From assembly GCA_008690995.1 (NCBI GenBank), contig VRMN01000003.1:558001-622000 (forward strand): a stretch of DNA of 64,000 bases, written 5' to 3'. Position numbers and translations under genes: made by a program. Position 1 is the first letter of the stretch. Every line of letters starts with the position of its first letter. This DNA is from Porphyridium purpureum (taxonomy: Eukaryota). Shown piece after piece: positions 4,074 to 53,986 of this stretch. Below the pieces are notes generated by a model. It did no database searches. It was not told the origin of the DNA and saw only the letters and a list, made by a program, of their open reading frames with translations.

Positions 4074-4907
4074 CTACGATGGAAGCAGCTCGTTTCGTCG
4101 CAGCGCGACGCACAGGCTCTCGAAAATCTCGTCGGGGCTGCCCTCAGAAGGCACTTCGTTCAGAATGCCTTGCGCGCTGTACTTCTGGATAACCGGCATC
4201 GATGTGTCCAGAAAGGTGCGGAAGCGCGACTCGATGACATCGCTGCAGTCGTCCACCCGCCCACTCGTTTTGCCGCGACCGAGAAGGCGCTCACGCATCG
4301 TCTCAATCGAGCACGAGAAGTACACCACCAAATCGATCTCGCCAATCCGCTTCTCATACTCCACGGCCTGATCAAATGCGCGCGGGAAGCCGTCAATCAG
4401 AATGCCCGGCGTGCCCTCAGCCGTTTTCTGGATCTCCTTGTCCAGCAGCTCAATGGTGACGTATCCTGGCACAATATTGCCACCGTCGATGATTTCCTTG
4501 ATCATCCGACCCAGCTCTGAGTCCCGTTTCGCCTCGGCCCGCAACAGCTCGCCGGCACAAATTTGCTTCCATCCATATTTCTCCACTAGCATTTCACACT
4601 GAGTGCCTTTGCCGCTTCCAGGGCCGCCGAGCACAAAGACGATAGGTCGCTTTGGCGCACTGAAACGGGCATGTTCCCCGTCTATGTTCATCGCGACCGC
4701 AGCTGCGCGGTTGGACAAAGGCGCGTGGCTTCGCGCTACTTCCAGTTCACACCGCAGTGAGGAAGCTGTGCGTCGTGCAAAACGATACTGCCGTGCTGAC
4801 CTGTACGAACGGCACGTGGCCTGGCGTGAAAACGCGTAGGAAGCGCATGCTGAGGCGACGCATTGCGGACACGCACGCATGCCGGCGGCTCCAGCAAATC
4901 CGAGCAT
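4074..4907 (-). CDS. UMP-CMP/adenylate kinase family protein with N-terminal transit peptide
   Basis: VLGGPGSGKGTQC P-loop, LIDGFPR, GKTSGRVDD; Ser/Arg/Ala-rich N-terminal extension. Confidence 0.9.
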   Translation of the reverse strand: MLGFAGAAGMRACPQCVASACASYAFSRQATCRSYRSARQYRFARRTASSLRCELEVARSHAPLSNRAAAVAMNIDGEHARFSAPKRPIVFVLGGPGSGKGTQCEMLVEKYGWKQICAGELLRAEAKRDSELGRMIKEIIDGGNIVPGYVTIELLDKEIQKTAEGTPGILIDGFPRAFDQAVEYEKRIGEIDLVVYFSCSIETMRERLLGRGKTSGRVDDCSDVIESRFRTFLDTSMPVIQKYSAQGILNEVPSEGSPDEIFESLCVALRRNELLPS

Positions 4908-6377: not shown

Positions 6378-7550
6378 CTACTTCTTGTCGGTTGCCGCAA
6401 CACTTTGCTGTTGCAGCGCTTTCATCCTCTCTTCGGCCTTTCTCTGTTCCTTCTCCGCCTGTGTCAAGAGCTTACCCTCGTTCTTCAATTTCTCCTTGCG
6501 CTCGCTGTATCGATTCGTAAGATCGCCAGCGACCGGCGTCATCACTGCGGTGAATTTCGCGAATTCCTCAGCACAATCTACAGCACGATCACGGAAATCT
6601 GACTCCTTCATGCGCCCGGCATCGTCAAATTCAGTCCACGCTTTAGCGACACTGCTCTGGTTGGTGCAGCATGGCATGCGCATCCACCTCGCAAGCAATC
6701 GCAACGCGTTGACCGCGTTGAACGACTGACTGCCGCCATTGACCTGAGCCACCAGCGCGGTGCGACCCTGCGTCGGTCGGACCGAGCCCGTATTGAGCGG
6801 AATCCAGTCGATCTGGTTTTTAAAGACTCCCGTGATTGTGCCATGCATCTCCGGGCTGACCCAGACGTGCCCATCACTCCACAAGGTAAGCGCGCGCAGC
6901 TCGCGCACTTTGATCTCGTTCTCGAGCTCCGGATCGCGAGGTGGCAGGCCCTGCGGGTTGTAAACGCGCACGTCACAGCCAAGCACGTCCAGTAGACGAG
7001 CAAATTCGTATGCCATCTTGCGACTGAAGGACGAAGGGCGCAAGGAGCCATAGAGAACCAGGATCCGCGGCGGACGTCCAATGGGCAACGCGGCGTAGTC
7101 AAAGCGCGTGAGATAGTCTGCTACTTCATCTCGTACCCAGCAGTGGGGCCGAACTCCATCCACAGGCTCCTGCGCGGCGCGATGCGCGAGCCAGCCGCCC
7201 GCGTGCGTCACAGGGTCGCTCGCCAACGCATATCCCGGATGGTTCAAATCTGCAAACGCCTCGGGATTCTCGTTGGAGAACAAATCACTCGACATATTTA
7301 CGCCTGCACTACCCATGACTGAAAATCCCCGCCGGTCCCTTCCTCGCCCCTGCTGGTGATAAGAGTGCCTCGCGAAAATGCCCACTGGACTCGTACGTGC
7401 GCCACTCACCACCGGTACGCCGGTCAGGACCGCGGCCGTTTTCACGCCTTTTCGCAGCGCAGGGTGCACGCTCAAGCGCCGCGAGGATGCCGACACGATG
7501 CGCTGGATCCCACCACAACCACACTGTCCGGCAAAGGCGATTGCAGACAT
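6378..7550 (-). CDS. arsH: ArsH, NADPH-dependent FMN reductase/organoarsenical oxidase, with putative plastid transit peptide
   Basis: PRILVLYGSLRPSSFSR, WVSPEMHGTITGVFKNQIDWIPL, VRPTQGRT, QVNGGSQSFNAVN, RWMRM, NQSSVAKAW. Confidence 0.93.
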   Translation of the reverse strand: MSAIAFAGQCGCGGIQRIVSASSRRLSVHPALRKGVKTAAVLTGVPVVSGARTSPVGIFARHSYHQQGRGRDRRGFSVMGSAGVNMSSDLFSNENPEAFADLNHPGYALASDPVTHAGGWLAHRAAQEPVDGVRPHCWVRDEVADYLTRFDYAALPIGRPPRILVLYGSLRPSSFSRKMAYEFARLLDVLGCDVRVYNPQGLPPRDPELENEIKVRELRALTLWSDGHVWVSPEMHGTITGVFKNQIDWIPLNTGSVRPTQGRTALVAQVNGGSQSFNAVNALRLLARWMRMPCCTNQSSVAKAWTEFDDAGRMKESDFRDRAVDCAEEFAKFTAVMTPVAGDLTNRYSERKEKLKNEGKLLTQAEKEQRKAEERMKALQQQSVAATDKK

Positions 7551-20510: not shown

Positions 20511-22139
20511 ATGTTGGGTTTCGTGGGGGTCTCGTCCGCGCCTGCGCTAGGGAGCTTGACTCGCTTGGATGGTCCGTCAGGCACACTGTGCGCGCCGAAC
20601 GGTGCCTTGCGAATCCGCCGCCCTGACGGGCGGTGTGTGCTAAGGATGACGTCGGCCGCCCCGGTAAATGCTGCCCCGGCGGCTGGACCGGAAGGCGAGC
20701 GTGCGGTAGACGTGCTGGTGGTCGGGTCGGGCATTTCGGGGAGCTCGCTGGCGTTTTCGCTCCACCAGAAGGGCATTGACGTACTGATGTGTGAGTCTCG
20801 CGATCGTGTGGGCGGGAACGTGACATCTCGCAACGAGAACGGATACACGTGGGAGGAAGGACCCAACACGTTCCAGCCGGCACCACACATCATGCGGATT
20901 GCGGTAGATCTAGGCCTGAAGGACGAGCTGGTACTTGCCGATCACACGCTCCCGCGATTCGTGTACTGGGATGGGAAGCTCTTCGCGCTCCCCATGGGAC
21001 CTCAGGACATTCCCAACTTCCGCCTGCTTTCGCCTCTGGGAGCCATTCGCGCAGGCTTGGGTGCGATGGGCTTTGTGTTGCCCAACTTGTCGGGCAAGGA
21101 GGAGAGCGTGAAAGAGTTTATTACCAGGCACCTTGGAGCTGAGGTATTTGCAAAGATGATTGATCCATTTGTCTCAGGGGTGTACGCAGGTGACCCCACC
21201 AAACTATCTATGCAGAGTGCGTTCAAGAAAATCAAGGCACTGGAAACGCTGGGCGGTACGCTCGGCATCGTTGAAGGCGCGATCATCCGATTGGGTCAGC
21301 GGAAGAGAGAGGCACCCCCGTTTGACCCCGAGCTACCAACTTACAAAGGAGGCTCACTGGGCTCATTTAAGCGCGGGCTAGCCATGCTTCCAGAATCTGC
21401 GGCGAAGCGCCTGGGCAGTGATCGAGTTCTTTTGGAGCATTCTGTGTCATCCATCGAGTACGTGCCTGAGCAGGAGCGCTACCGAGTGACTTTGCAGCAG
21501 ACTGACGGAGATACCAAAGTCATTCTTGCCAAAAAGGTCGCTCTCACGACGCCAGCAAACGCCACAGCAAACATCCTGGACAGCGTACTGGAGAGTGCGG
21601 CCGACTTGCGCAATATTGTGTACCCCACCGTCTTTTCAGTGACACTTGCGTATAAGAACGAGGCGTTTCGCGAACCGCTGCGCGGTTTTGGAAACCTTAT
21701 CCCGAGAACAATGGGCGTGCGCACGCTGGGTACGATCTGGTCATCGTGCCTGTTTCCTGGTCGCTGCCCACAAGGCGAGACGCTGCTTTTGTCGTACATT
21801 GGTGGCGCTCAGGATCCTTCGATCAAGAGTTTGACAGACGCAGAGGTCGCTCAGCAAGTACATGAAGACATTGCGCGCATACTTCTGAAGGAAGGGGGCG
21901 TGAACGAGCCGTACAAGGTCGTTGGCGTGCGTAAATGGGATCGCGCCATTCCGCAGTACAACATTGGCCACAATGAGCGCATCGAACGCTTTGTTCACGA
22001 GGCCGCAGAAAAATGTCCTGGCATGTATTTGGGAGGGAACTACATCAGCGGCGTTGCCTTTGGTGACTGCGTTCTGTGGGGTGTCGAGACCGCGAAAGAA
22101 ATCGAAAGGGCGTTGAGCCTCGTTCGTCCGTCGACGTGA
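20511..22139 (+). CDS. PPOX: Protoporphyrinogen oxidase, plastid (HemY type)
   Basis: VVGSGISG FAD motif, WEEGPNTFQP, DPFVSGVYAGDP, LGTIWSS, AIPQYNIGH; transit peptide. Confidence 0.96.
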   Translation: MLGFVGVSSAPALGSLTRLDGPSGTLCAPNGALRIRRPDGRCVLRMTSAAPVNAAPAAGPEGERAVDVLVVGSGISGSSLAFSLHQKGIDVLMCESRDRVGGNVTSRNENGYTWEEGPNTFQPAPHIMRIAVDLGLKDELVLADHTLPRFVYWDGKLFALPMGPQDIPNFRLLSPLGAIRAGLGAMGFVLPNLSGKEESVKEFITRHLGAEVFAKMIDPFVSGVYAGDPTKLSMQSAFKKIKALETLGGTLGIVEGAIIRLGQRKREAPPFDPELPTYKGGSLGSFKRGLAMLPESAAKRLGSDRVLLEHSVSSIEYVPEQERYRVTLQQTDGDTKVILAKKVALTTPANATANILDSVLESAADLRNIVYPTVFSVTLAYKNEAFREPLRGFGNLIPRTMGVRTLGTIWSSCLFPGRCPQGETLLLSYIGGAQDPSIKSLTDAEVAQQVHEDIARILLKEGGVNEPYKVVGVRKWDRAIPQYNIGHNERIERFVHEAAEKCPGMYLGGNYISGVAFGDCVLWGVETAKEIERALSLVRPST

Positions 22140-32251: not shown

Positions 32252-34099
32252 TTAATCCAATAGGTGCTGCCTACGATCCTGTTCCTTCAGAATGATGAAG
32301 CGGAAAACTTCATAAATCACCAAGCTAAAAGTAATCAAAAGCGGTGCGATCAAAAGGCCCTGCTGTCCAAATACAGAAAGTCCCAAAACCGAAGCAACTG
32401 TCAGCAGCTCATAGTTCAGGATACTCTTGCCAACTACCATGCGCTCTTGCACTGTTTCTAGATAATCTTCTTGATCTGACGCGTAAAACATGTGCACAAG
32501 AGGAAGAGCAGCAAATTCGACCCAGCGGCGCTGCGCAATAAGCTGCGGCGCGGAAAAACACAATGAAAATACCCAGGCAGGCGGCATGAAAGGTAACACC
32601 TGTGACAGTCCGGCCAACAATGCTGCGATAAATTCAAAGTTCAGCCCCAGGGCAGAAAATGAAATCCAAACAAACGCAACGTGCAGCATAAAGAAGCGCA
32701 TACTCACCCAGAAGATCGCCGAGATTGCACTGCGAAGATCTCTCTCGATCATATTATTCAAGCTCTTTGTAGGCAGCGGCAACATGTTCGTCAGGTAGCT
32801 GATCGCGCTGTCCTCGCTTCGAAGGAACAGAAACAGGAAGGCAAGGAAACTCCCTATCCAGCTGAGCGAGCTGATCACCTCGACGAGTTTGGAAAACCCC
32901 TTGGCGAGAAGTGTAAGACCCTTGCCAGTGTACTCCCTGGCCATGTCAAGGTACTGCTCAACATTCCCAAGCCGTTCTTTTGCGCTACCGATCAACTCCT
33001 GCACTTCTCCGACTGACCTTGGTACGTACGGTTGAAGGTTCTCATACAACTCCCGCGCCTTGTCTTTCAACAGTTCCGCATCCATCAGGGCGAGGAGTTC
33101 CGTAGCATTTGTCTGCATTCCGCCCAGCTCTGAGCCACTTGCGTTTCCACTTTGTAGCGCCAAGGGAGAGCTTGGATCTCTACCGAGTGCGGATTGCAGG
33201 CCCGCCTGCACATATGGCATCACGTCGACGCCAGTCACATTCCCAACCTGAGAGGCAATCCTTTCAATATTATGCACGTTGTCAACTACGTACGTCTGGG
33301 CCTTGTCCTGTACTTCGCCCATTTTTGCTTGTATCCATTCAACTTTGCTCGGGTCGTCCTGCACAATACGAATCAAGTACTGGGTTCCGTCTCGCGCACC
33401 GGACACGACATCGATGGCACTACCAGTCAGGAAAAGCCCAAGAAAGATGACGGCAAAACCTACAAAGGAGAGCATCGTGAGGCCCGATGCCGCGCTGTTG
33501 GGATCCACCATATGAAGCATGACCAAAATGCGCGTCACAATGACGCCGGCGGCAAGCATGGTGCCGTAGATCACGAGAACAGACACGAAGAAGGCAAAAA
33601 GTTTTGGCTGGCGGACGGCCAGAAGTATGATCACTGCCAACAGCATCAGGTGGTTTTTCCGTGACACCCAGCCAGACTTGGTCCAGCGAGCGTATTCATC
33701 GCCGTCTTCTAGGGCGCTGATACGCTTAGTTGCAGCAGTGCCGTCATCCTTTTCCCTATCATCGTCCTGCTTCTCGCGCAACTCCTCCGCGGCACACGAC
33801 GCGCTACGTGTCTTGGCGGTCTGTCTGTCGCGCTGCGATTTCGCCACCGCCGGAGCAATGACCATCAGGAACCCGTCCCGGATGCGGCGCATCGATGTAC
33901 TGACGACAGCTGCGACGAGTAGCGGAAGCATGTACGGCTCAAAGAGCGTGTAGTTATACCAGAGGATCCCGATCAGCCCGGCGCCCAGCGCGATGCCCAG
34001 CGCAACATCCAGAGCTGCCGACGACGCGCTCCAGCTCACCACATGGCGCACCAACAAGTCCAGCCCGTCATCGCGATCGCGCCCTGCCTTCCCAACCAT
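32252..34099 (-). CDS. AI-2E/TMEM245-like multi-pass membrane protein
   Basis: Many TM helices; C-terminal LTVASVLGLSVFGQQGLLIAPLLI matches the AI-2E family end motif. Confidence 0.8.
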   Translation of the reverse strand: MVGKAGRDRDDGLDLLVRHVVSWSASSAALDVALGIALGAGLIGILWYNYTLFEPYMLPLLVAAVVSTSMRRIRDGFLMVIAPAVAKSQRDRQTAKTRSASCAAEELREKQDDDREKDDGTAATKRISALEDGDEYARWTKSGWVSRKNHLMLLAVIILLAVRQPKLFAFFVSVLVIYGTMLAAGVIVTRILVMLHMVDPNSAASGLTMLSFVGFAVIFLGLFLTGSAIDVVSGARDGTQYLIRIVQDDPSKVEWIQAKMGEVQDKAQTYVVDNVHNIERIASQVGNVTGVDVMPYVQAGLQSALGRDPSSPLALQSGNASGSELGGMQTNATELLALMDAELLKDKARELYENLQPYVPRSVGEVQELIGSAKERLGNVEQYLDMAREYTGKGLTLLAKGFSKLVEVISSLSWIGSFLAFLFLFLRSEDSAISYLTNMLPLPTKSLNNMIERDLRSAISAIFWVSMRFFMLHVAFVWISFSALGLNFEFIAALLAGLSQVLPFMPPAWVFSLCFSAPQLIAQRRWVEFAALPLVHMFYASDQEDYLETVQERMVVGKSILNYELLTVASVLGLSVFGQQGLLIAPLLITFSLVIYEVFRFIILKEQDRRQHLLD

Positions 34100-34764
34100 C
34101 GTCGCGAGCGCCCCCTCCCACCTTCTCGGTGCACCCGGCTGCCACCCGCACAGCAGCAGCGTGAGACTCGCGCGCACGCGGTTGCGTTGGCTGCAACGGA
34201 GCGTCTTCAAAGTTTGCGTACAGCGGCTGAACACCCGTCGGGCCTATCCTGCGTAGCGCACGCGCAAAGGAGCGCGTTGGCGACCCGAATGTTTGTCGCA
34301 GCTGGCCAAGATGCCAGGAAGGCAGCGCGTACACTCGAAACACACGGCACAAGATCTCACATGTTCTGGGTACGCCCGAAATGATCGCGCCGCTCTATGC
34401 GACACTCGCTTGCCTAATCTGCATTCTCGCCGGTCGCACGGCGTCCGAGCACCTTTGTGAATCGCTTGGCGACACACGGACCGCCTCGGCGTCCGCCTTG
34501 ACGCGCCAGAAGCCATGCAAGCGTGTGTCGGCCCGCGCTGGACCTACTGCAGCGGACATGCCTGCAGTGCCGCCGCGGGCGGAGGCACCGTTAGCCGAGC
34601 TCGCACTTGACGAGGCCCATAGTGCGCACGTGTTCAAGAACAGCCGGCCCACACACCGCATGAACCAGTACCCCGTCAGCGCACAGCAGCGTGCGCTTTG
34701 TACGACAAGAGTGCTACTTCCGTATCTGAACCCTGCGCTCGACACGGACGACCTTCGCTTCCTG

Positions 34765-35213
34765 ATGAAGGGGATTTGCGCGTTTGGAGTGCGCATGGCG
34801 CGTAGTCATGCGTTGACTGTGCACATAATGGCTCAAAGCGTGAAGCAGTTTGGGATCTGAGCGTGTCCGTTCTGGGTCTGCAATAGTCGCTTGCACCAGA
34901 AATTCGTACGTCAAGGGAGAGTTGATCAAAGAGATTGCGTGCGCGACTCCGGCTGGTGTATCTGGGACCGGAAATCACCGACGATCATCTGGATGTTTTC
35001 ATATTTGTACACTCAACAGATGCGCAGGGAGCCGAAGGCGTTGTCCCATTTCTAGACTGCCATCCGTTGGAGAAGGACGGCGTCCGTGTGCTGGTCAACT
35101 CTGATTTCGTACCGCCTGCGAGCGACACTGCGGTCACCGGTGTGTAGACATTCATCTGTTCCGCCTTCCACAGTTGGCGCCAACCTGAATTCTGGAACCG
35201 GACATACCTGTAA
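34765..35213 (+). pseudogene. Degenerate IS607-family serine recombinase (TnpA) remnant
   Basis: AIVACTRNS..GELIKEI resembles YARVSS..DL.RQ; LRLVYLGPEITDD resembles L..YP..EII.D; LEKDGVRVLV; ends RTYL* at TAA 35211-35213. Confidence 0.45.
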
Positions 35214-36286
35214 TGACTCCCTTCCGCCCAGTCTTTGAGCGGCCACCCTCTACGAAGCACTTGCGCGTGAGGGAGCAAGGCACTCTACGGTCCAGTTTTT
35301 CGAAGGATGTCCGAAGAATCGACCATCGCACGTCGTATGACCCTTCGGTAACATTCCATCAAGATGAGGCCATAAAGGCTCAAACGCAGAGAACTGGAGC
35401 TTCGTTGAAGCCTCATCGTAACGTGTCGCTATACGTAAAAGCAGCGCCAGCGCCCGCAGCGGCGCGGGGGGAAATGATTTGATCCGCATCATGTGGCCGT
35501 CCGTCCAAATGCCGGTTTCTTGTCGATTTAATGCTCCATGGCCGTCATCGCGGCCGCAGCCGCAAGAGGCCCAGGACAGAGGCCACTTTCCTGCGAATCT
35601 GCATGTCGTTGTGATGGACCCGGGCGTGCATACATTCGAGACGTTATTTGACCTGAGCCGGTGTCGCGCACTACCGATGAAGGCAACACATGGCGCATGG
35701 TCTAGCTATGCGTTGGCCTGGATGAGCTGACGTTCAGTACTGATGCAGCGGCTAACACGCACGAGTTATGTACGCTGTGTCGCAGCGCGTTGTGAGCACG
35801 CAAACGCATTCACAAGCTTGTGAATCAGGTGCGCGAGCAGCTGGCCCCGTTTTTCCTGTGCATGGACGACGTCAGCATCTGCCCGCGTTTGATGTGACCA
35901 AATTGACTCTTGCATGTGGCCACAACATCGGTTCCAAACCTGTGCGTCAGATGAACTGGCGGGCCCGCTACCGCTGTCAGACGCGGCTTGCGCTCAAGGT
36001 GCGTTGGGCCGGCTTGAAGCTAGTGCTGATCAAGGAGGCGCGCGTGCAAAAGACTTGCAGCGCCTACGGGACCGTCAAGGCCAACATAACCGGGGCTAAC
36101 GTCTCCACGCATGGCTCTGCTGCCTGCAGTGCTACAGCCATGAAGCTGGACGCCATCGGCGCCAAGAACACTTTAAAATGGGAACTTCCGAGAGTTGCAC
36201 ACCCGGGTATAGCCATGGGAACAACTGCCAGAGCATTTCAGGCCATTGCGAAAAATTCACACCTTCTGCACCTGGGACGCCTCTGA
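35213..36286 (+). pseudogene. Fanzor2/TnpB-family RNA-guided endonuclease pseudogene
   Basis: RuvC-I VVVMDPGVHTFET (D at 35617-35619); LCVGLDEL..L*ARKRIHKLVNQVREQLAPFF; LPAFDV; IKEARVQKTCS (E at 36035-36037); KLDAIGAKNTL (D at 36149-36151); internal stops and frameshifts. Confidence 0.85.
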
Positions 36287-36541
36287 GGAGCTCGAAGAAG
36301 GGAGCTATGGGACGCGAGACCACTATCCATATGTTCACGCCAGCTCTTTCAGCCTTTTACGTCCGTTGAATTTTTATATAGATTCTAAGGGTCTTCAGGT
36401 TTTCGAAACGTAGATTGGGTGACAAACAAGCGCGACCATCCCGTCGCCTCCATCACACGACAAAACTTCCACGCCCTCGTCCCCTTGAGTTGGCCTTGCC
36501 TCATTCAAGTCGTCGTGAGAGACCCGCATTAATAGATCACC

Positions 36542-39500
36542 TTACGACTTATATTTAGACATGATTTTTTCTTCGTCCACGGACGCCTCGCTGCTCGACT
36601 CACTTTCTGATTCGACGCTCCTGCTCTTTCTGCCTTCCGTCTCCACGGCTTTCTTACTCTTCTCTCGGTTCTTGTCGCCATGCTCTTTGTCTGCCTTCGA
36701 TTCCGATCTTGAAGAATCAGCTCGACTGTCCTTGGTCACGATCCTCTCCTCGTTCGCAGAGGTCTCACTGCCAGTGTCACTTTTTGACTCGGCGCTTTTA
36801 ATCGTCTTGTTCTTTTTGTTCATCTTTTCAGCAGCTTTCTTACTCTTCTTTCGGTCCTTGCCACCATGCTCTTTGTCTCGCTCCGATTCCGATCCTGAAG
36901 AATCGGCTCGACTGTATTTGGCCATAATCTTCTCCTCATGGGCTGGGGTCTCACTATCCGAAGCGCTTTCAGCACTTGATGAAGTAACAGTGGCAGCCCC
37001 TTTCTGTGCACTTCTCTTTCTTTTGATATTCTCGGAAAATTCATCCCCACTCGACGCCTTTGTTGAGTTCGATGTTTGACGAGCAGGCCCACTTGAATGC
37101 GACGTTCCTCCGGTCCCCTTTTCCTTCATCCTCCTATCTTCGCTCGACGCTTCGTGCTCCTGCTCTAGAACAGGAGCTGACGATTCTGCTCTTCTCTCCT
37201 GCTCCTTGATGTCTTCAAATGTGATCCCTGGTCCGTCAAACTCATGAAGCAAAGAAGAGTCTGGTGATGCCCGAGACTCAAGCTCAGCGGGTGCGGACGC
37301 TGCAGAACTATCACTATGTCCTTTCGCGAATGCGAGCGCTGGCGTCAGAAGATCTCGAACTCGAAATGCTTTATGCACATGCTCTTCGCTGCCGAGCTTT
37401 GAAACATCCTGATCACGTCCAGAAAAGGATCCGCTCTGAAGCTGTCCCTCACCATGGCGACCTTCTTCGTGTCTTGAACCACTCCCGTTTTGCGACTTTT
37501 CTCCGTCGCCTGTGCTTCTCTCTCGCGTATCGCTCAAAGCCAAAGCTGGTTGAGCTTCTTGCTCTTTGGCTTCGTCCTGCGCCACAACAACCGCCAAATC
37601 CTTTTGCGCACTATCACGATCGGCTTCAGATTCCTTACTTTTGGCTGCGCGTGACTCCAAAGTATCTGCGCCTCGAAGTCTTTCACTTTGACTTCCCTTT
37701 TCATCTGTGCTGCTTCCTGGCGAGATTGCATCATCAGGTTTTTTCTTGTTGTTGTCCTTTTCAGATTCATCCTCGCTTCTGGTCGTATCCTGATCTTGCT
37801 TACGCTGCTGTATATCTTCGAATGTCGTGGCAGGCTGTTGTGCTTGTTCCTTTTCCTCCTGTATGCGTACTTCTGCAGGGACGTCCCCTCCCGAGCGACC
37901 GCTTCCTGCAGTAGAGTTCGGGCTTTGCATGTCATTCCCATCAAAGTTAGTCTGAGGGTCCTCTTCCATATCACGCGGTGAGTCACCATTGTTGGACGAG
38001 TGACTGTGACTCATTCCGCTGTAGCTTCGGACGATCTCTGTTTTCCCAGAATGAATCAAAAAGAAAGCATGCTCTGTGGCGTACGTAATTGCTTCGAACT
38101 CGGCAGAGTTCTCGCCGTGCTTCCGCTTGGCCTCATCTAGAACGAGACTCAGATGGTATTCAACGCGCTGAATACGTGACGAAAGCCGCATCTTCTTGGC
38201 TCCCTGCACGAGAGCGACTTCCTGATTGACACGTCGTCCGACGGCACCAAGCATGTACTGAAGCCGTCTCGCTACGTACACATCAGGCACGCCATACTTC
38301 CGTAGCGGATGGGCGACACTGTCAATTAAAGCATTGAAAGACGGACGAGGAATCGCAACAAGAACTCGGAAATCGCCGTGTTTTGCGCGAATGATTCTTG
38401 GATCGCAGCGCCGGGCCGCAATGTCAGATAAAAGCCTCTCGTGCCGGTCCAGGGCCTCGGTCGCCGTCGTTGGGTCATTGACGCCGGGACTCAGCGCCTT
38501 CAGCGCCACGTCGGTAATTTGATGCAAACCAAATTCCACATCCTGTAAAATAGAGCGATTAAAACCATATCGAAAGCATGCGCGCACGTCCTTCTCCAGC
38601 CGCCTTCGATACGATCTACTAAGTGCTTCCGTGCTCTTGCCAGGAAACCACAGCCAAGCCATCAGAGTACCAAATGTTATGTACTCACCGATCCGCGGTC
38701 GCAATCTGATCACGAAGCCTGACGCGTTTGCCATGCGTGTCAAGTACACTTCACTGACACTTCTCAAATAGCCGCTCTTCTCTGACACGATCTGAAGCGC
38801 CCCTGGTGGCACCATGGGAAGCCCAATGATCTCGTCCAATTGGTACGGACCATGCTTTTCGGATCTTTCGAGATCCTGCTCGAACATGGTCAACTTGTTG
38901 AGCGAGTCGTGAATCTGGGGAATCGTAGCAAGCGTATCGGTAGCCACATTATCCATCAGGACCGATACGTTCATGCTCGTCACGACGTAGTGTAAATAGT
39001 ATACCAAACCGAGAACAACGGCAACCACATGGATCACCATCACATTGACGGCCACGGATGGCACAAAGGGCATTTCGGTATCAGTTTGCGTGCACATGAC
39101 GCCTGCATAGGAGTACGCGAAAGTGCCCAAGAAAATACAGAGCACAATTTTAGTGGGTCGCCGGCTCATCAAACCTGTGAGTAAGCGTGCGGAGTATGTC
39201 ACGCCGGCCACTTGAAATGCAACAATGCACAACGAAAAGACGGTTCCTGTGAGACTGATGACGAAACCTCCGACGTACGTGAAGATGGTAAGTGCGTCGT
39301 CCGCTGTTCCGTTGAACCACCACTTGTACCCATTGCCTGTTTGTATATTACCCTCTCCGACGGACGCGATGAGCGCGCCTACAATGAAATTGACTGTGAT
39401 TGAGATGATCGGTAGCGTCCAGAGCGAATTCTCAAAGTACTCCAAGGCGCGAGTCAACCATAACGTAACTCGTGCACGCCACACACTCGCCTTTCGCTGC

Positions 39501-39709
39501 TTAGAAGATGCTTCGTCCGTATCAACGCTGTCTCGGCATTGTGTCTGTGCAGAGCCGTGCAGCCGCGCATTCGATCCCTGTTCGGACTCAACCGCTCCTT
39601 CTCTCCGGGCAGCAGCCAACGGGTTCCCGGTCCCATAGAGTTCGGCGCGAAATCCTGCCTCCCACGTTTCCTTCTTGGTCAGCGTTCGCTTCACGGCATC
39701 GTTCTCCAT
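36542..39709 (-). CDS. DUF2254-family membrane protein with long charged C-terminal tail
   Basis: TVFSLCIVAFQVAGVTYSARLL, LCIFLGTFAYS, SGYLRSV, QDVEFGLHQITDVALKALSPGVNDPTTA. Confidence 0.9.
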   Translation of the reverse strand: MENDAVKRTLTKKETWEAGFRAELYGTGNPLAAARREGAVESEQGSNARLHGSAQTQCRDSVDTDEASSKQRKASVWRARVTLWLTRALEYFENSLWTLPIISITVNFIVGALIASVGEGNIQTGNGYKWWFNGTADDALTIFTYVGGFVISLTGTVFSLCIVAFQVAGVTYSARLLTGLMSRRPTKIVLCIFLGTFAYSYAGVMCTQTDTEMPFVPSVAVNVMVIHVVAVVLGLVYYLHYVVTSMNVSVLMDNVATDTLATIPQIHDSLNKLTMFEQDLERSEKHGPYQLDEIIGLPMVPPGALQIVSEKSGYLRSVSEVYLTRMANASGFVIRLRPRIGEYITFGTLMAWLWFPGKSTEALSRSYRRRLEKDVRACFRYGFNRSILQDVEFGLHQITDVALKALSPGVNDPTTATEALDRHERLLSDIAARRCDPRIIRAKHGDFRVLVAIPRPSFNALIDSVAHPLRKYGVPDVYVARRLQYMLGAVGRRVNQEVALVQGAKKMRLSSRIQRVEYHLSLVLDEAKRKHGENSAEFEAITYATEHAFFLIHSGKTEIVRSYSGMSHSHSSNNGDSPRDMEEDPQTNFDGNDMQSPNSTAGSGRSGGDVPAEVRIQEEKEQAQQPATTFEDIQQRKQDQDTTRSEDESEKDNNKKKPDDAISPGSSTDEKGSQSERLRGADTLESRAAKSKESEADRDSAQKDLAVVVAQDEAKEQEAQPALALSDTRERSTGDGEKSQNGSGSRHEEGRHGEGQLQSGSFSGRDQDVSKLGSEEHVHKAFRVRDLLTPALAFAKGHSDSSAASAPAELESRASPDSSLLHEFDGPGITFEDIKEQERRAESSAPVLEQEHEASSEDRRMKEKGTGGTSHSSGPARQTSNSTKASSGDEFSENIKRKRSAQKGAATVTSSSAESASDSETPAHEEKIMAKYSRADSSGSESERDKEHGGKDRKKSKKAAEKMNKKNKTIKSAESKSDTGSETSANEERIVTKDSRADSSRSESKADKEHGDKNREKSKKAVETEGRKSRSVESESESSSEASVDEEKIMSKYKS
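36545..36976 (-). repeat. Coding tandem repeat of about 59-62 aa (about 2.4 copies)
   Basis: EEKIMAKYSRADSSGSES..DKEHG.K..KSKKA / EERIVTKDSRADSSRSES..DKEHG.K..KSKKA / EEKIMSKYKS. Confidence 0.9.
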
Positions 39710-39899
39710 CACGCGCGCCGCTCTAGACTGACGGAACGAGCGGACCGCGCACCGACCTCCGTATGGGTACCCGCGTCACGCCCTTCGCACCGAGTGCGAC
39801 CGAAGGGCTTCTCCAGCTGCGGCACTGGGTGCGCCCGATGTTCTTCCGTTCATAGAAACCTCAAACTACGGCGCTCGTCCCTGCGCGTTTGTCTGGTTG

Positions 39900-40800
39900 T
39901 CTGAGCTTGGCGCGTTTACGTTAAAGCAGGCCGTTTGGATATGAAGGCGTTTGAGCTCGGTCTGACTGAACGGATAGATTACAGCGAGTGCTGCTTCGCA
40001 AGCGTTGCGGAGCACGTCAGAACGGTTGTGCTCAATACGGCGGGAGCGACGCACAGTGGATGCAAATCGCAATGAAATGGCGCTCACTAATTAGTACATG
40101 TTTGCCCGGTAAAACGGTCGATGAGAGAAGCGCCGTTGCGATGCGACGGGACGTGTGCCAGATCCGTGGATGTCGTCCGTGATCGTCTGACGCTTGTTCA
40201 CGCCTGTTGTTGTTTGGTAAGAGCATTCCTTGCCGTCCGCTCTCGTCGTTGTTCGAAGGAAGAAGAGAACATCACAGACGTCTTCGTATAGTCCGACTCT
40301 GGAAGTAAAAGATCCCGCGCGGAGGTTCTGCTGCAAACGTTTGTCCAGAAGGAATTGCATGTGAGTCACATCGAAATGCAGGTGCTTCTTGTGAGGAGAA
40401 GGGTTTCTCAGTGCGCGTCGAATTGCAGGTCCACTCTCTTTTGGGGAAGAGGAACAAGTGTGTCGGCGCCCGGAAGTCAGGACATTGAGTGAACGGGTTG
40501 AAAATACGACAAATGCTGGCCTGACCCGTCTTCACCGAGCGCAACCAATTGCTATACCCCATGAAGACTGAAAGTTCTACTTATCGTATTTCGCGAGCAA
40601 GCGCACGTGACCGCCACCGCAAGTTCCATTCCTGAGCGCATGTGCGACAGCGCGGTCATTCCAGGTAGATTTCTGCAGGTCTTGGTTTTCATGCCAATTT
40701 GCAGGACGTGCGACAGTCGCGTGTGCATGTTGCGCAAACCAACTTCTGCGGCACTGTGGCCCAATCCAAAGTACAATGCACCTTACACACATACCTCCAG
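39900..40800 (-). mobile_element. Decayed Mutator-like (MULE/FAR1-type) transposase remnant
   Basis: Collinear fragments LYEDVCDVLFF, TGVNKRQTI, IATALLS, SDVLRNACEAALAVIYPFSQTELKRLHI across several frames. Confidence 0.5.
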
Positions 40801-41348
40801 CGCACATTGTGCATACAAACCATATCTGTCAGGTGGATTAACCGCTTTAGGGCGACCGAAAACAACAGGTGGCACTGTCAAGGTGAGTTTGCTGAGCAAA
40901 GAATCTTAAAACATATTTTTTTGGAGTCTCCGGATTGAAGTGGAACCAGCCTTTCCTGCGTCCTCGAAGATCACAGATGTTTGCTTCGCAAGGTTGTTCG
41001 ACAACGCAGTCGCCGGACCAGGCGACGGTCTCGAACACTGCCGGTTTAAAACTTGCCAGTGCGTTGATGGGTATAATGATTTGGAAACCGACGGTGACCG
41101 CTAGAACCGCACACGCGGCACGAGTACATGTAAAGTCTCCTGGATGGCCTCTCTCCACCTCGTCTGACAGACGCAGCGAGCGAGCTTGCCTGTCCGGACG
41201 CTCGATCGCAAGGTGTACAGTGTGACTTCGGCCACATCGCGTGCTGACCCCTCCGTACGTCGACGATTTGCACTTCGAGGAGCTAGTCTGAAGCACGTAG
41301 CCTACGCCTTGGCGCTTGAATTTCGTACCACAAAGGGCCGCCCTGGTC

Positions 41349-42188
41349 ATGCGGACCGCACAAAGCTGCTTGGGATGGGCGCTTCGTCTTCCGAGCCCTG
41401 TCGGTACAGCAGCTTCCCGCGCAAGTATGTCCGAGCGTACAAGGGGCATCCCCCCCGCCTTTGCGACACAGCCGCGTGTGCGCCGTCTCGCACGGCAACG
41501 CGGTACGCGCTGGTGCACTCCTCATGATGGGGATGGCCAGCCCGGTGACAAAAAAGCGGCCGGTAATCTGGATGCTCGTGCGATGAGCGCCCAGGACAAA
41601 CTGCTTTTGAAGCTCGGTAAGAACGTGGACAGCACACGCGCAGCGTTCGCGGCCAAGGTCAAGGCAAGCGAGGCGAAGGAGCAGCGCATGCAGCGCGGAA
41701 AAATTCTGTCAGCTCTTATTTCGGTAGGCTTAGGTTTTGTAATTCACTTTGTGTTGACACACAGCCAGCTGTCTCCAACAGTTATCATGCACGAACTCGA
41801 GAAGAAGAACCCGCCGATCGAGGTAGCGCTGTCAAACGGAAAGCCCACGGTCATTGAGTTTTACGCTGACTGGTGCACAGACTGCAAAGTGATGGCCCCG
41901 AAACTTAGCAAGCTGCATGCTACTTTTTCTCCCACGGTCAATTTTGTGGTGGTCAATGGCGACGCGCCGGAGAATCAAGACTTGGTATCGCAATTTCGTG
42001 TCGATGGGATTCCTCACATATCATTCATCTACGGAGGAAAACGAATTCCTGATACCACTTTTATTGGCTTGGTACCCGCCGACGTCATGACACAACAGAT
42101 CGATGCCCTGAGAGCACGCGCTCCTCTGCCGTATCAAGGTTTAGAATTATATTCAGATGAGTTTGAAGAAGCGTACGGAGCTGAATGA
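41349..42188 (+). CDS. HCF164: Thylakoid thioredoxin-like protein, HCF164/TxlA type
   Basis: Transit peptide, one TM helix, ALSNGKPTVIEFYADWCTDC, FRVDGIPH. Confidence 0.85.
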   Translation: MRTAQSCLGWALRLPSPVGTAASRASMSERTRGIPPAFATQPRVRRLARQRGTRWCTPHDGDGQPGDKKAAGNLDARAMSAQDKLLLKLGKNVDSTRAAFAAKVKASEAKEQRMQRGKILSALISVGLGFVIHFVLTHSQLSPTVIMHELEKKNPPIEVALSNGKPTVIEFYADWCTDCKVMAPKLSKLHATFSPTVNFVVVNGDAPENQDLVSQFRVDGIPHISFIYGGKRIPDTTFIGLVPADVMTQQIDALRARAPLPYQGLELYSDEFEEAYGAE

Positions 42189-52779: not shown

Positions 52780-53986
52780 TCATTTGTACAAAAGCTTCTC
52801 TACGCTAATCAAGCCTGGCTCACTTACGACCGAGTCACAGTGCTCTTGCAACGCCGCTAAGCATGCTCGTGACTCTCTAGCCTGGTCCATGGAACGACTT
52901 GTTCTCATCCCAATGACCGAATGAAAGCCTAGCCGCCTTGCGGCACGCGCATTTTGAGCAGAAGCTGTGATGAAAGTTGCGCGAGGAGCAGATGTGCCCA
53001 CTTCTTGTAAAGCTCTCTTCATGACCTCACGCGCAGCAAATGTATTTCCTGTTTGCACCGCGTCTGCCGTGACAAGGTGGTCAAGGATTACATGTGCCTC
53101 GTCAAACATACGTGCACTACTCACTTCGTCCGTGCTCACCGTCTGGTCATCTCGAACGTGAATATCAAGATTGTTGAGAACGCGTGCAGTCTTCGAAGCC
53201 GCGCTCAAACTGTAACCGCACACTAGAACGCCCGCCATTTGAAGTCTCCGAAGGAGCGCCTTCTCGGATCAAGTTCACACGTTCTTCAAGAAAGTTCTCA
53301 CTTTCCAAGTGCTCATAGAACAATTGTGCAACGCTCGACTTTTCCGACGCGGTTAGACTTACAGCCGAAAGACGCGTGGTTTCCGTCAAAAGAGCCAGGT
53401 CGCCATCACAAACGCGCTTCGCAATTTCCGTCAACTCTTTCCGATACTCCACGTGCTCCCGCTTGCTACCGGATTTGCCAATGCGCTGAGCATGCCGCTC
53501 GAGAGCATAAGTAGCGGCAAGCAGGCTTATAGCGCTCGTGTCAAAGCAGACGCCTTCCAAATCTACCAGTACGGCGTCAATATATCGCTGTTTCTCGTGA
53601 TCCACGAATACCAGTGCGCGTTCCGCGGCCATAGGTGCCCCAAACAGATGTGGCTCCAGGTGGTCCAGGCTACGGTTTAGAAGCGAGTCCACATACCTGG
53701 ACACGGACGTCCCATACTCCTGCGCGTAGCGGTTGACTACATTGTAAACTTGCCGCCGAATGAGGAGGCGAGGCTGCGGCATCTGCCTCGGTTTATCTGA
53801 GCGAGCGGTGCCGTCCTCGTCATCCGTCGAACGATCTGTGCACGCAACGAAATAGTTCCTTTGGCGCGCACGCCCAGCGGCTCGTGCCACCAAATAGCTC
53901 TCTGGGGAGGCGCGCTCGGAGCTGCTTGGTATCAATGCGGAGCTAGGCAGTCCTCCCACGAATGCTGCCATCCCGACGGTACCCAC
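52780..53986 (-). pseudogene. HAD-superfamily protein, probably plastid-targeted, split by a frameshift near 53255
   Basis: VLVDLEGVCFDT motif I in ORF 53165-53986; the HAD core continues as LLRRLQMAGV..ARAARRLGFHSVI in ORF 52780-53238. Confidence 0.65.

What the first reader, a model, noticed from the sequence alone, without database searches (positions are those of the whole stretch)
35213..36286. Fanzor2 (eukaryotic TnpB-derived RNA-guided nuclease) pseudogene with the rearranged RuvC triad intact
Seen: joining three frames gives VVVMDPGVHTFET (RuvC-I D, 35617), then LCVGLDEL..*ARKRIHKLVNQVREQLAPFF, LPAFDVTKL, RQMNWRARYRCQTRLALK, IKEARVQKTCS (E, 36035), a decayed zinc finger (CSAY..HGSAAC) and KLDAIGAKN (RuvC-III D, 36149). 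Known: DPG at RuvC-I, loss of the canonical RuvC-II Glu (here LPxF) and an alternative Glu before the zinc finger mark Fanzors and their IS607-linked TnpB relatives. This copy is dead: TAG 35703, TGA 35793, frameshifts near 35670 and 35870, and apparent loss of the N-terminal region. Inference: this alga hosted, or still hosts elsewhere, an omegaRNA-guided Fanzor family, and it is split across small ORFs that gene callers would miss.
Basis: partly seen in the sequence, partly recalled or inferred. Interest (0 to 1): 0.9.

Follow-up and report, generated by a model that had tools for sequence, protein, structure and literature searches.

The report
Dead Fanzor2 gene in an alga
This is the broken back half of a gene for Fanzor2, a known RNA-guided DNA-cutting enzyme of jumping genes, lying between two ordinary genes of what is likely a single-celled red alga; it is predicted to do nothing today and is of interest mainly as a likely new host record.

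Summary
Confirmed: a decayed Fanzor2 gene at about 35543-36184 (+). Three collinear pieces in three frames match a profile of intact relatives (E 1e-5, 8e-5, 1e-19), and a DNA profile spans both frameshifts (E 7e-23). D35617, E36035 and D36149 align with the rearranged triad. The stops and frameshifts recur in two other DNA runs, so they are real. It is more ruined than reported: about 70 WED codons are deleted, the N-terminal half and TnpA are undetectable, 2 of 4 zinc cysteines and the RD arginine are gone, and only 27 of 44 clade-invariant residues remain, so the intact triad is chance (about 0.23). It nests (95-100 bootstrap) in a clade of IS607-type Fanzor2 elements from giant-virus and eukaryote-like contigs. 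Relatives carry a clear omegaRNA; here only a non-significant trace (E 0.26). All four runs hold a second, roughly 80% identical copy that shares both flanks and lacks RuvC-I and the catalytic Glu: a segmental duplicate, not an active family. No intact copy was seen, but no whole genome could be searched. Host likely a unicellular red alga, a group for which I found no Fanzor2 on record. The scan had not noted this before.

The parts
35543..35596 (+). Remnant of the REC-to-WED linker of Fanzor2 (matches residues 133-146 of P0005), in its own frame; abuts RuvC-I, so about 70 codons of WED strands are deleted at about 35590-35598
   Evidence: Best N-terminal local match for 4 of 6 Fanzor queries; ungapped profile score 34.25, reached by 1 of 413 other 305-nt windows and 1 of 300 shuffles
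35590..35673 (+). RuvC-I strand with DPG motif, catalytic Asp codon at 35617
   Evidence: Profile positions 268-295, E 1.1e-5; tblastn
35664..35873 (+). Helical middle part after a +2 frameshift; in-frame stops TAG 35703 and TGA 35793, both at columns where relatives mostly have Arg
   Evidence: Profile positions 301-361, E 7.9e-5
35879..36184 (+). C-terminal piece after a -1 frameshift: LPxF (no canonical Glu), shifted Glu 36035 six residues before the first Cys, zinc finger C-x2-Y...H-x4-C (36056-36127), RuvC-III Asp 36149 with RD changed to LD
   Evidence: Profile positions 366-461, E 1.3e-19; PF07282 E 9e-4; NF040570 E 2e-3
35951..36286 (+). 111-aa ORF annotated as a protein in public databases; a fragment of the pseudogene, lacking RuvC-I
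   Evidence: P0001; Atlas model pLDDT 0.50 with PF07282 look-alikes
36302..36421 (+). Candidate only: decayed omegaRNA and right end; equally the AT-rich 3' end of the neighbouring host gene
   Evidence: Full-length match to the relatives' RNA model, 4.1 bits, E 0.26 in 396 nt; absent from the whole-window list; AT-rich patches as strong sit at 7 other places near gene ends
34381..35150 (+). Left flank: orphan 159-aa ORF that seems to run on past a TGA and a frame change (probable pseudogene of unknown family); 34897-35043 is shared with the second copy
   Evidence: No family or homologue
36542..39709 (-). Right flank: host DUF2254 membrane-protein gene, convergent; its 3' part to 36997 is shared with the second copy
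   Evidence: PF10011 E 1e-80

Best explanation
This is the broken, internally deleted back half of a Fanzor2 nuclease gene, likely left by an IS607-type transposon that likely came from the giant-virus and protist gene pool, and predicted to be inert today. Shown: homology, three frame breaks, two stops, a deletion of about 70 codons, loss of 17 of 44 clade-invariant residues, no detectable N-terminal half or transposase, and a second, more broken copy with the same flanks. Inferred from the intact relatives and the literature: the ancestral element carried a serine recombinase (TnpA) overlapping the 5' end of Fanzor2 and an omegaRNA of about 100-145 nt at its right end; TnpA moved it through a circular DNA intermediate, and the Fanzor2-omegaRNA complex cut DNA beside a short motif at sites matching the flank-derived guide. 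Inferred history: one insertion between two host genes, loss of the left half, long decay, then duplication of the whole segment with its flanks and independent decay of the two copies (about 20% apart).
For: Profile and DNA-profile hits across the breaks. Breaks present in independent contigs: X1 records 1 and 3 and X3 record 19 cover them with 5, 5 and 6 single-letter differences, none at the stops, and no gaps. End branch 1.6-1.7 against 0.3 for its sister. 27 of 44 invariant columns kept against 45 of 45-49 in each of 17 intact members. Clade support 100/96 and 95/93 with none of 5 and none of 16 bacterial-genome rows inside. Clade loci include a giant-virus MAG (L001, L002), neighbours Erv1/Alr (L089) and a Sar1/Arf GTPase (L099). 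7 of 16 loci checked have a YARVS recombinase motif; L001's passes NF033518 IS607 transposase. Profile of relatives ranks mimivirus Fanzor2 (9b0l) first at E 3e-60, next natural TnpB 4e-22. Second copy in 4 of 4 runs shares 34897/34989-35043 and 36419-36997, skips RuvC-I and reads AAT at the Glu codon.
Against: No element end or TnpA survives here, so IS607 carriage is inferred from relatives only. An AU test does not formally reject placing the relic with a 14-row bacterial pro-Fanzor-like clade (p 0.07). dN/dS between the two copies is 0.51 over 55 codons, below 1 though not significantly (Fisher p 0.12). The whole genome could not be searched. The host lineage is inferred, not tested by a tree.
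Confidence: 0.85

Rival explanations
1. The relic is one dead copy of a family that is still intact and active elsewhere in this genome.
For: A second copy exists; Fanzors are often multi-copy (PMC10530073, passages); the genome could not be searched.
Against: The second copy shares both flanks and lacks RuvC-I and the Glu. Laying four runs at 80% likeness showed no further long copy among the pieces listed (table cut, 20 pieces not shown). No protein above 43% identity among 1.84 billion representatives besides the ORF itself; the search for longer relatives found none (weak). The relic's branch is five times its sister's.
Confidence: 0.06
2. Part of the relic has been kept for a new job: the 111-aa ORF as a nucleic-acid-binding protein, or the 3' region as a stand-alone guide RNA.
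For: The last 136 codons are open; the ORF is annotated; dN/dS 0.51 between copies; a full-length trace of the omegaRNA model on the right strand.
Against: The open piece has lost zinc ligands and core residues; the second copy changes the ORF's start codon to ATA; dN/dS is not significantly below 1; the RNA trace is not significant; no RNA run showed transcription, as only contigs were available.
Confidence: 0.05
3. It came straight from a bacterial pro-Fanzor TnpB (for example cyanobacterial IS607) and was never a eukaryote-adapted Fanzor2.
For: Pro-Fanzors share DPG and the shifted Glu (PMC10711439, passages); AU p 0.07 for grouping with 14 bacterial rows; the window holds other bacterial-type genes (ArsH, DUF2254).
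Against: Best trees place it inside the virus/eukaryote-like clade, sister to P0005 (96/84); the linker remnant matches that clade; the named phmmer hits are eukaryotic (Klebsormidium, Pharyngomonas).
Confidence: 0.04

Closest known systems
Fanzor2 of IS607-type elements, e.g. mimivirus ApmFz2 (PDB 9B0L; PMC11832414, passages read)
   Same: DPG at RuvC-I, Glu shifted next to the zinc finger, Asp after it (ApmFz2 D324, E467, D501; spacing 143 and 34 residues against about 139 and 38 codons here); top PDB hit of the relatives' profile.
   Different: No N-terminal domain, REC or intact WED; stops, frameshifts, broken zinc finger; no recognisable omegaRNA or TnpA; about 37% identity at best to any intact protein.
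Unnamed Fanzor2 clade from freshwater, soil and giant-virus contigs (P0005, P0002, L080, L001, L099)
   Same: Nearest relatives, 33-43% identity; same clade at 95-100 bootstrap.
   Different: These are intact, often with overlapping TnpA and a conserved omegaRNA (GCCUAC/GUAGGC closing stem, right end GAGTAGGCG).
CMe-1 of the red alga Cyanidioschyzon merolae (PMC3627910, Table 1 and passages read)
   Same: An old, decayed Fanzor family in a unicellular red alga.
   Different: CMe-1 is Fanzor1 and multi-copy; this relic is Fanzor2 with two copies seen.
Pro-Fanzor TnpB of bacterial IS607 (PMC10711439, passages read)
   Same: DPG and shifted Glu.
   Different: Bacterial rows fall outside the relic's clade in both trees; not formally rejected by the AU test (p 0.07).

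Membership tests
TnpB/Fanzor superfamily | Split RuvC with a C-terminal zinc-ribbon region, in the order D, E, zinc finger, D | tested here: met
   Collinear profile hits in three frames; DNA profile E 7e-23; PF07282 E 9e-4, below the curated cut-off
Fanzor / pro-Fanzor | DPG at RuvC-I | tested here: met
   MDPG, D at 35617
Fanzor / pro-Fanzor | Glu shifted to six residues before the zinc finger; canonical Glu absent | tested here: met
   E 36035, six residues, then C 36056; LPAF aligns with the IPxF column of relatives; definition from 10.1101/2023.08.09.552727 passages
Fanzor / pro-Fanzor | C4 zinc finger and the [TS]-[TS]-x-x-C ... RD motif | tested here: not met
   C-x2-Y, H-x4-C, VQKTC and LD in this copy; read as decay, since the aligned columns are invariant or nearly so in 17 relatives; His could be an older ligand
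Fanzor2 (not Fanzor1) | Compact TnpB-like RuvC region grouping with IS607-linked Fanzor2 | tested here: met
   Relatives' profile ranks 9b0l first (E 3e-60) and lists no chain named Fanzor1 among 29 hits; D-to-E spacing about 139 codons; Klebsormidium rows labelled FZ2 in PMC10432273 Table 1 resemble hit P0006 by eye. No reference Fanzor was in my trees.
Fanzor2 (not bacterial pro-Fanzor) | Placement among eukaryote or eukaryotic-virus sequences | tested here: inconclusive
   Best trees: inside a clade with no bacterial-genome row (100/96, 95/93); AU p 0.07 for the bacterial alternative; most clade members come from unlabelled contigs
Fanzor2 | N-terminal HTH/REC/WED half | tested here: not met
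   Only an 18-codon linker remnant; other N-terminal scores at shuffle level
IS607 element | TnpA serine recombinase upstream | tested here: not met
   TnpA profile of 7 relatives finds nothing in the window (best E 1); present in 7 of 16 related loci
OMEGA system | omegaRNA at the right end | tested here: inconclusive
   Model from 12 relatives: no hit at the locus in the whole-window scan; best local match 36302-36421, E 0.26; no Rfam hit
OMEGA system | RNA-guided DNA cleavage | not testable with these tools
   Predicted absent: the reading frame is broken and WED/REC are lost

The most novel reading that the evidence does not exclude
The first Fanzor2 from a red alga: a fossil showing that an IS607-Fanzor2 transposon of the giant-virus clade once entered a unicellular red alga's nucleus, pointing to past giant-virus traffic in that lineage and to intact Fanzor2 elements waiting in related red algae.
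Probability: 0.35. Interest if true: 0.5.

Novelty: new member of a known kind. Interest (0 to 1): 0.28.

Why it matters
As a dead fragment it offers no new enzyme or mechanism. Its value is distributional: if the host is a red alga, it extends Fanzor2 to a group where the catalogues I could search list only Fanzor1, and ties it to a virus/protist clade. The by-product is more useful: the intact relatives found here (L080, L081, L083, L099, L001) come with TnpA, a sharp right end and a short, conserved omegaRNA, so they are ready candidates for ordinary nuclease assays.

Tried and rejected
Whole-genome search: no genome held. Direct searches with the decayed piece found nothing in PDB, among longer proteins, viral contigs or plasmids: too diverged for word-based search. 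N-terminal half and TnpA: frameshift-aware alignment, profile and DNA-profile searches at shuffle level; the 89-aa ORF at 35213-35482 has no family. Terminal repeats: none bracketing the relic among 10 inverted and 8 direct repeat families. omegaRNA: Rfam none; own model not significant; pairwise alignment of 9 relatives' RNAs reached by 5 to 112 of 200 shuffles, 3 of 9 ending at 36421; exact right-end motif absent from the window. 'Triad kept by selection' rejected: 0.61 cubed is about 0.23. Assembly error rejected (X1 may be the assembly's own source, X3 differs at 6 sites). Second copy is not in this window. Expression: only contigs were available and the one run on record as RNA covers intergenic DNA evenly, so nothing is shown either way. 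Upstream orphan ORF unidentified (the Atlas did not answer). The AU test with all 16 bacterial rows (p 0.013) is set aside because those rows are not one clade. The two Porphyridium rows labelled Fanzor in PMC10711439 Table S5 look like pattern false positives (recalled as a TFIIH subunit and a peroxin). No structure or complex prediction was run.

Full report
Setting. The window is gene-dense eukaryotic DNA of about 55% GC with long uninterrupted ORFs. Several probable plastid proteins begin with a Phe in the first residues (ORFs at 4074-4907, 20511-22139, 53165-53971), the motif that PMC7038456 (passages) gives for red algae and glaucophytes. Runs that hold the stretch mostly assemble to about 17-43 million letters. 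I infer a unicellular red alga; the likeness to Porphyridium is recalled, not tested. No whole genome is held. The finding lies in a 2.4-kb gap between an AI-2E transporter gene (32252-34099, -) and a DUF2254 gene (36542-39709, -).

Observation. All motifs, stops and coordinates are as written. The last piece (35876-36283) finds 20 proteins at E<=1e-3 among 1.84 billion representatives: itself and 19 others at 33-43% identity; 19 of 19 pass the PF07282 cut-off. tblastn of these links three frames (sum E 1e-21 for P0005). A profile of 16 relatives hits 35590-35673, 35685-35867 and 35879-36175 in order (E 1.1e-5, 7.9e-5, 1.3e-19; next best in the window E 1); the first two are independent tests, since the relatives were found with the last piece only. 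A DNA profile of 7 intact elements gives one hit, 35615-36175, E 7e-23. The piece by itself is weak in Pfam (19.7 bits, cut-off 26.3) and NCBIfam (E 2e-3); the Atlas returns PF07282 clusters at 0.95.

Damage. Frameshift-aware alignment puts a +2 shift in 35664-35694 and a -1 shift at 35879, with stops at 35703 and 35793. An 18-codon stretch at 35543-35596, in a further frame, matches the REC-to-WED linker of the closest relatives (reached by 1 of 413 control windows and 1 of 300 shuffles) and abuts RuvC-I, so about 70 codons are deleted there. Nothing of the N-terminal half or of TnpA is detectable. Of 44 columns invariant in 17 intact clade members the relic keeps 27; each intact member keeps 45 of 45-49 (a few losses near the joins may be alignment effects). 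Lost are the Thr before the zinc finger, two of four zinc cysteines (Tyr, His) and the Arg of RD. At 61% retention all three catalytic residues survive by chance about one time in four, so the intact triad says nothing about function. The breaks are real: contigs of X1 and X3 cross them with no gaps and only 5, 5 and 6 listed substitutions, none at a stop.

Family. 10.1101/2023.08.09.552727 (passages) defines Fanzors and pro-Fanzors by DPG and a Glu six residues before the zinc finger; both are met. The relatives' profile ranks mimivirus L79 (9b0l, ApmFz2 by PMC11832414, passages) first at E 3e-60, the next natural TnpB at 4e-22, and none of 29 hits is named Fanzor1; through the profile the three residues correspond to D324, E467 and D501. 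Named hits are from Klebsormidium and Pharyngomonas. Of 264 loci fetched, 134 gave an extractable ORF; with 13 hit proteins these were thinned to 87 rows. In careful trees the relic nests in one clade, 100/96 among 45 rows and 95/93 among 39 rows including 16 bacterial-genome rows thinned from 47 of 80, sister to P0005, on an end branch of 1.6-1.7 against 0.3. No bacterial-genome row is inside. The clade includes a giant-virus MAG (L001, L002), a locus beside Erv1/Alr (L089) and one beside a Sar1/Arf GTPase (L099). Against this, an AU test does not reject grouping with a 14-row bacterial clade (p 0.07), the branch is long, and no reference Fanzor was in the trees.

What the intact element looked like. 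7 of 16 related loci checked carry a YARVS recombinase motif; PF00239 is confirmed for L001, L087 and L099 and NF033518 for L001. In L001 it overlaps the 5' end of Fanzor2. Their 3' ends hold a 102-145 nt RNA closed by a GCCUAC/GUAGGC stem and ending at GAGTAGGCG (12 of 134 loci by pattern, two of them duplicates; 18 of 25 predicted pairs with a double change). PMC10711439 (passages) describes IS607 movement through a circular intermediate and guide use of the right flank. In the window the RNA model finds nothing at the locus in a whole-window scan (4 matches at E<=10, all elsewhere). Locally the best of 6 matches is full-length at 36302-36421, 4.1 bits, E 0.26, about 90 nt further out than in relatives, and AT-rich patches as strong occur at 7 other places near gene ends. 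This is inconclusive.

Second copy. 4 of 4 runs hold another contig about 80% alike (108 substitutions and 11 gaps over 35730-36287 in X1, at depth 292 against 222-260). It also matches 34897/34989-35043 and, in pieces, 36419-36997 inside the DUF2254 gene, and jumps from 35043 to 35730 (X1) or 35906 (X16, X19). It therefore lacks RuvC-I, and it reads AAT at the Glu codon. Shared flanks mean segmental duplication, not transposition. Each copy keeps ancestral residues that the other lost, while some changes are shared, so decay ran both before and after the duplication. dN/dS over 55 codons is 0.51, Fisher p 0.12 (the tables omit differences near contig ends and were cut). The copy is not in this window.

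Novelty. Fanzor2 is well described. For red algae, PMC3627910 Table 1 (section read) lists one Fanzor1 family in Cyanidioschyzon; PMC10530073 names rhodophyta among hosts without detail, and its data table gives no species names, so a red-algal Fanzor2 may sit there unseen; PMC10432273 supplements have no red-algal name among those searched (one scanned file not searched); PMC10711439 supplements give CMe-1 and three pattern rows that do not look like Fanzors; 10.1101/2025.02.11.637652 (one passage) mentions uncharacterised Fanzor elements in Bangiophyceae. Searches 'Fanzor + Porphyridium', 'Fanzor2, IS607, red alga', 'Fanzor + rhodophyt' and 'IS607, eukaryot, red alga, TnpB' gave no report of a red-algal Fanzor2. 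The scan's own notes hold no look-alike and two notes on the Cyanidioschyzon Fanzor1.

Verdict. A real, ancient, dead IS607-type Fanzor2 relic with one more-broken segmental duplicate. New member of a known kind; a likely new host record; interest 0.28.

Noticed in passing
L080, L081, L083, L087, L099, L001 (3' ends and 5' overlaps): An unnamed clade of intact IS607-Fanzor2 elements with TnpA overlapping the Fanzor 5' end in another frame and a short conserved omegaRNA ending at GAGTAGGCG; good candidates for nuclease assays.
   Followed up: partly
window 34381-35150 (+): Orphan 159-aa annotated ORF with a signal-peptide-like start that seems to continue past a TGA and a frame change; part of it is shared with the second copy, so it may be a pseudogene of a small host family. 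No family or homologue found.
   Followed up: partly
window 36542-39709 (-): DUF2254 (PF10011) membrane protein, a family I recall as bacterial, with a long low-complexity tail holding a 186-nt repeat (36619-36955); it has a paralogue at the duplicated locus. No paper joins DUF2254 and alga.
   Followed up: partly
window 6378-7550 (-): Bacterial-type arsenic resistance protein ArsH (TIGR02690 at its cut-off) with a plastid-like N-terminal extension; a likely horizontal acquisition.
   Followed up: no
second copy, runs X1 against X16 and X19: The duplicate differs between runs: it resumes at 35730 in X1 but at 35906 in X16 and X19, a likely strain-level deletion.
   Followed up: no
window 39710-41350: A 1.6-kb stretch without a convincing gene, unusually long for this window; not examined.
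   Followed up: no
PMC10711439 Table S5: Rows labelled Fanzor for Porphyridium and Gracilaria look like unrelated cysteine-rich proteins caught by the search pattern.
   Followed up: no
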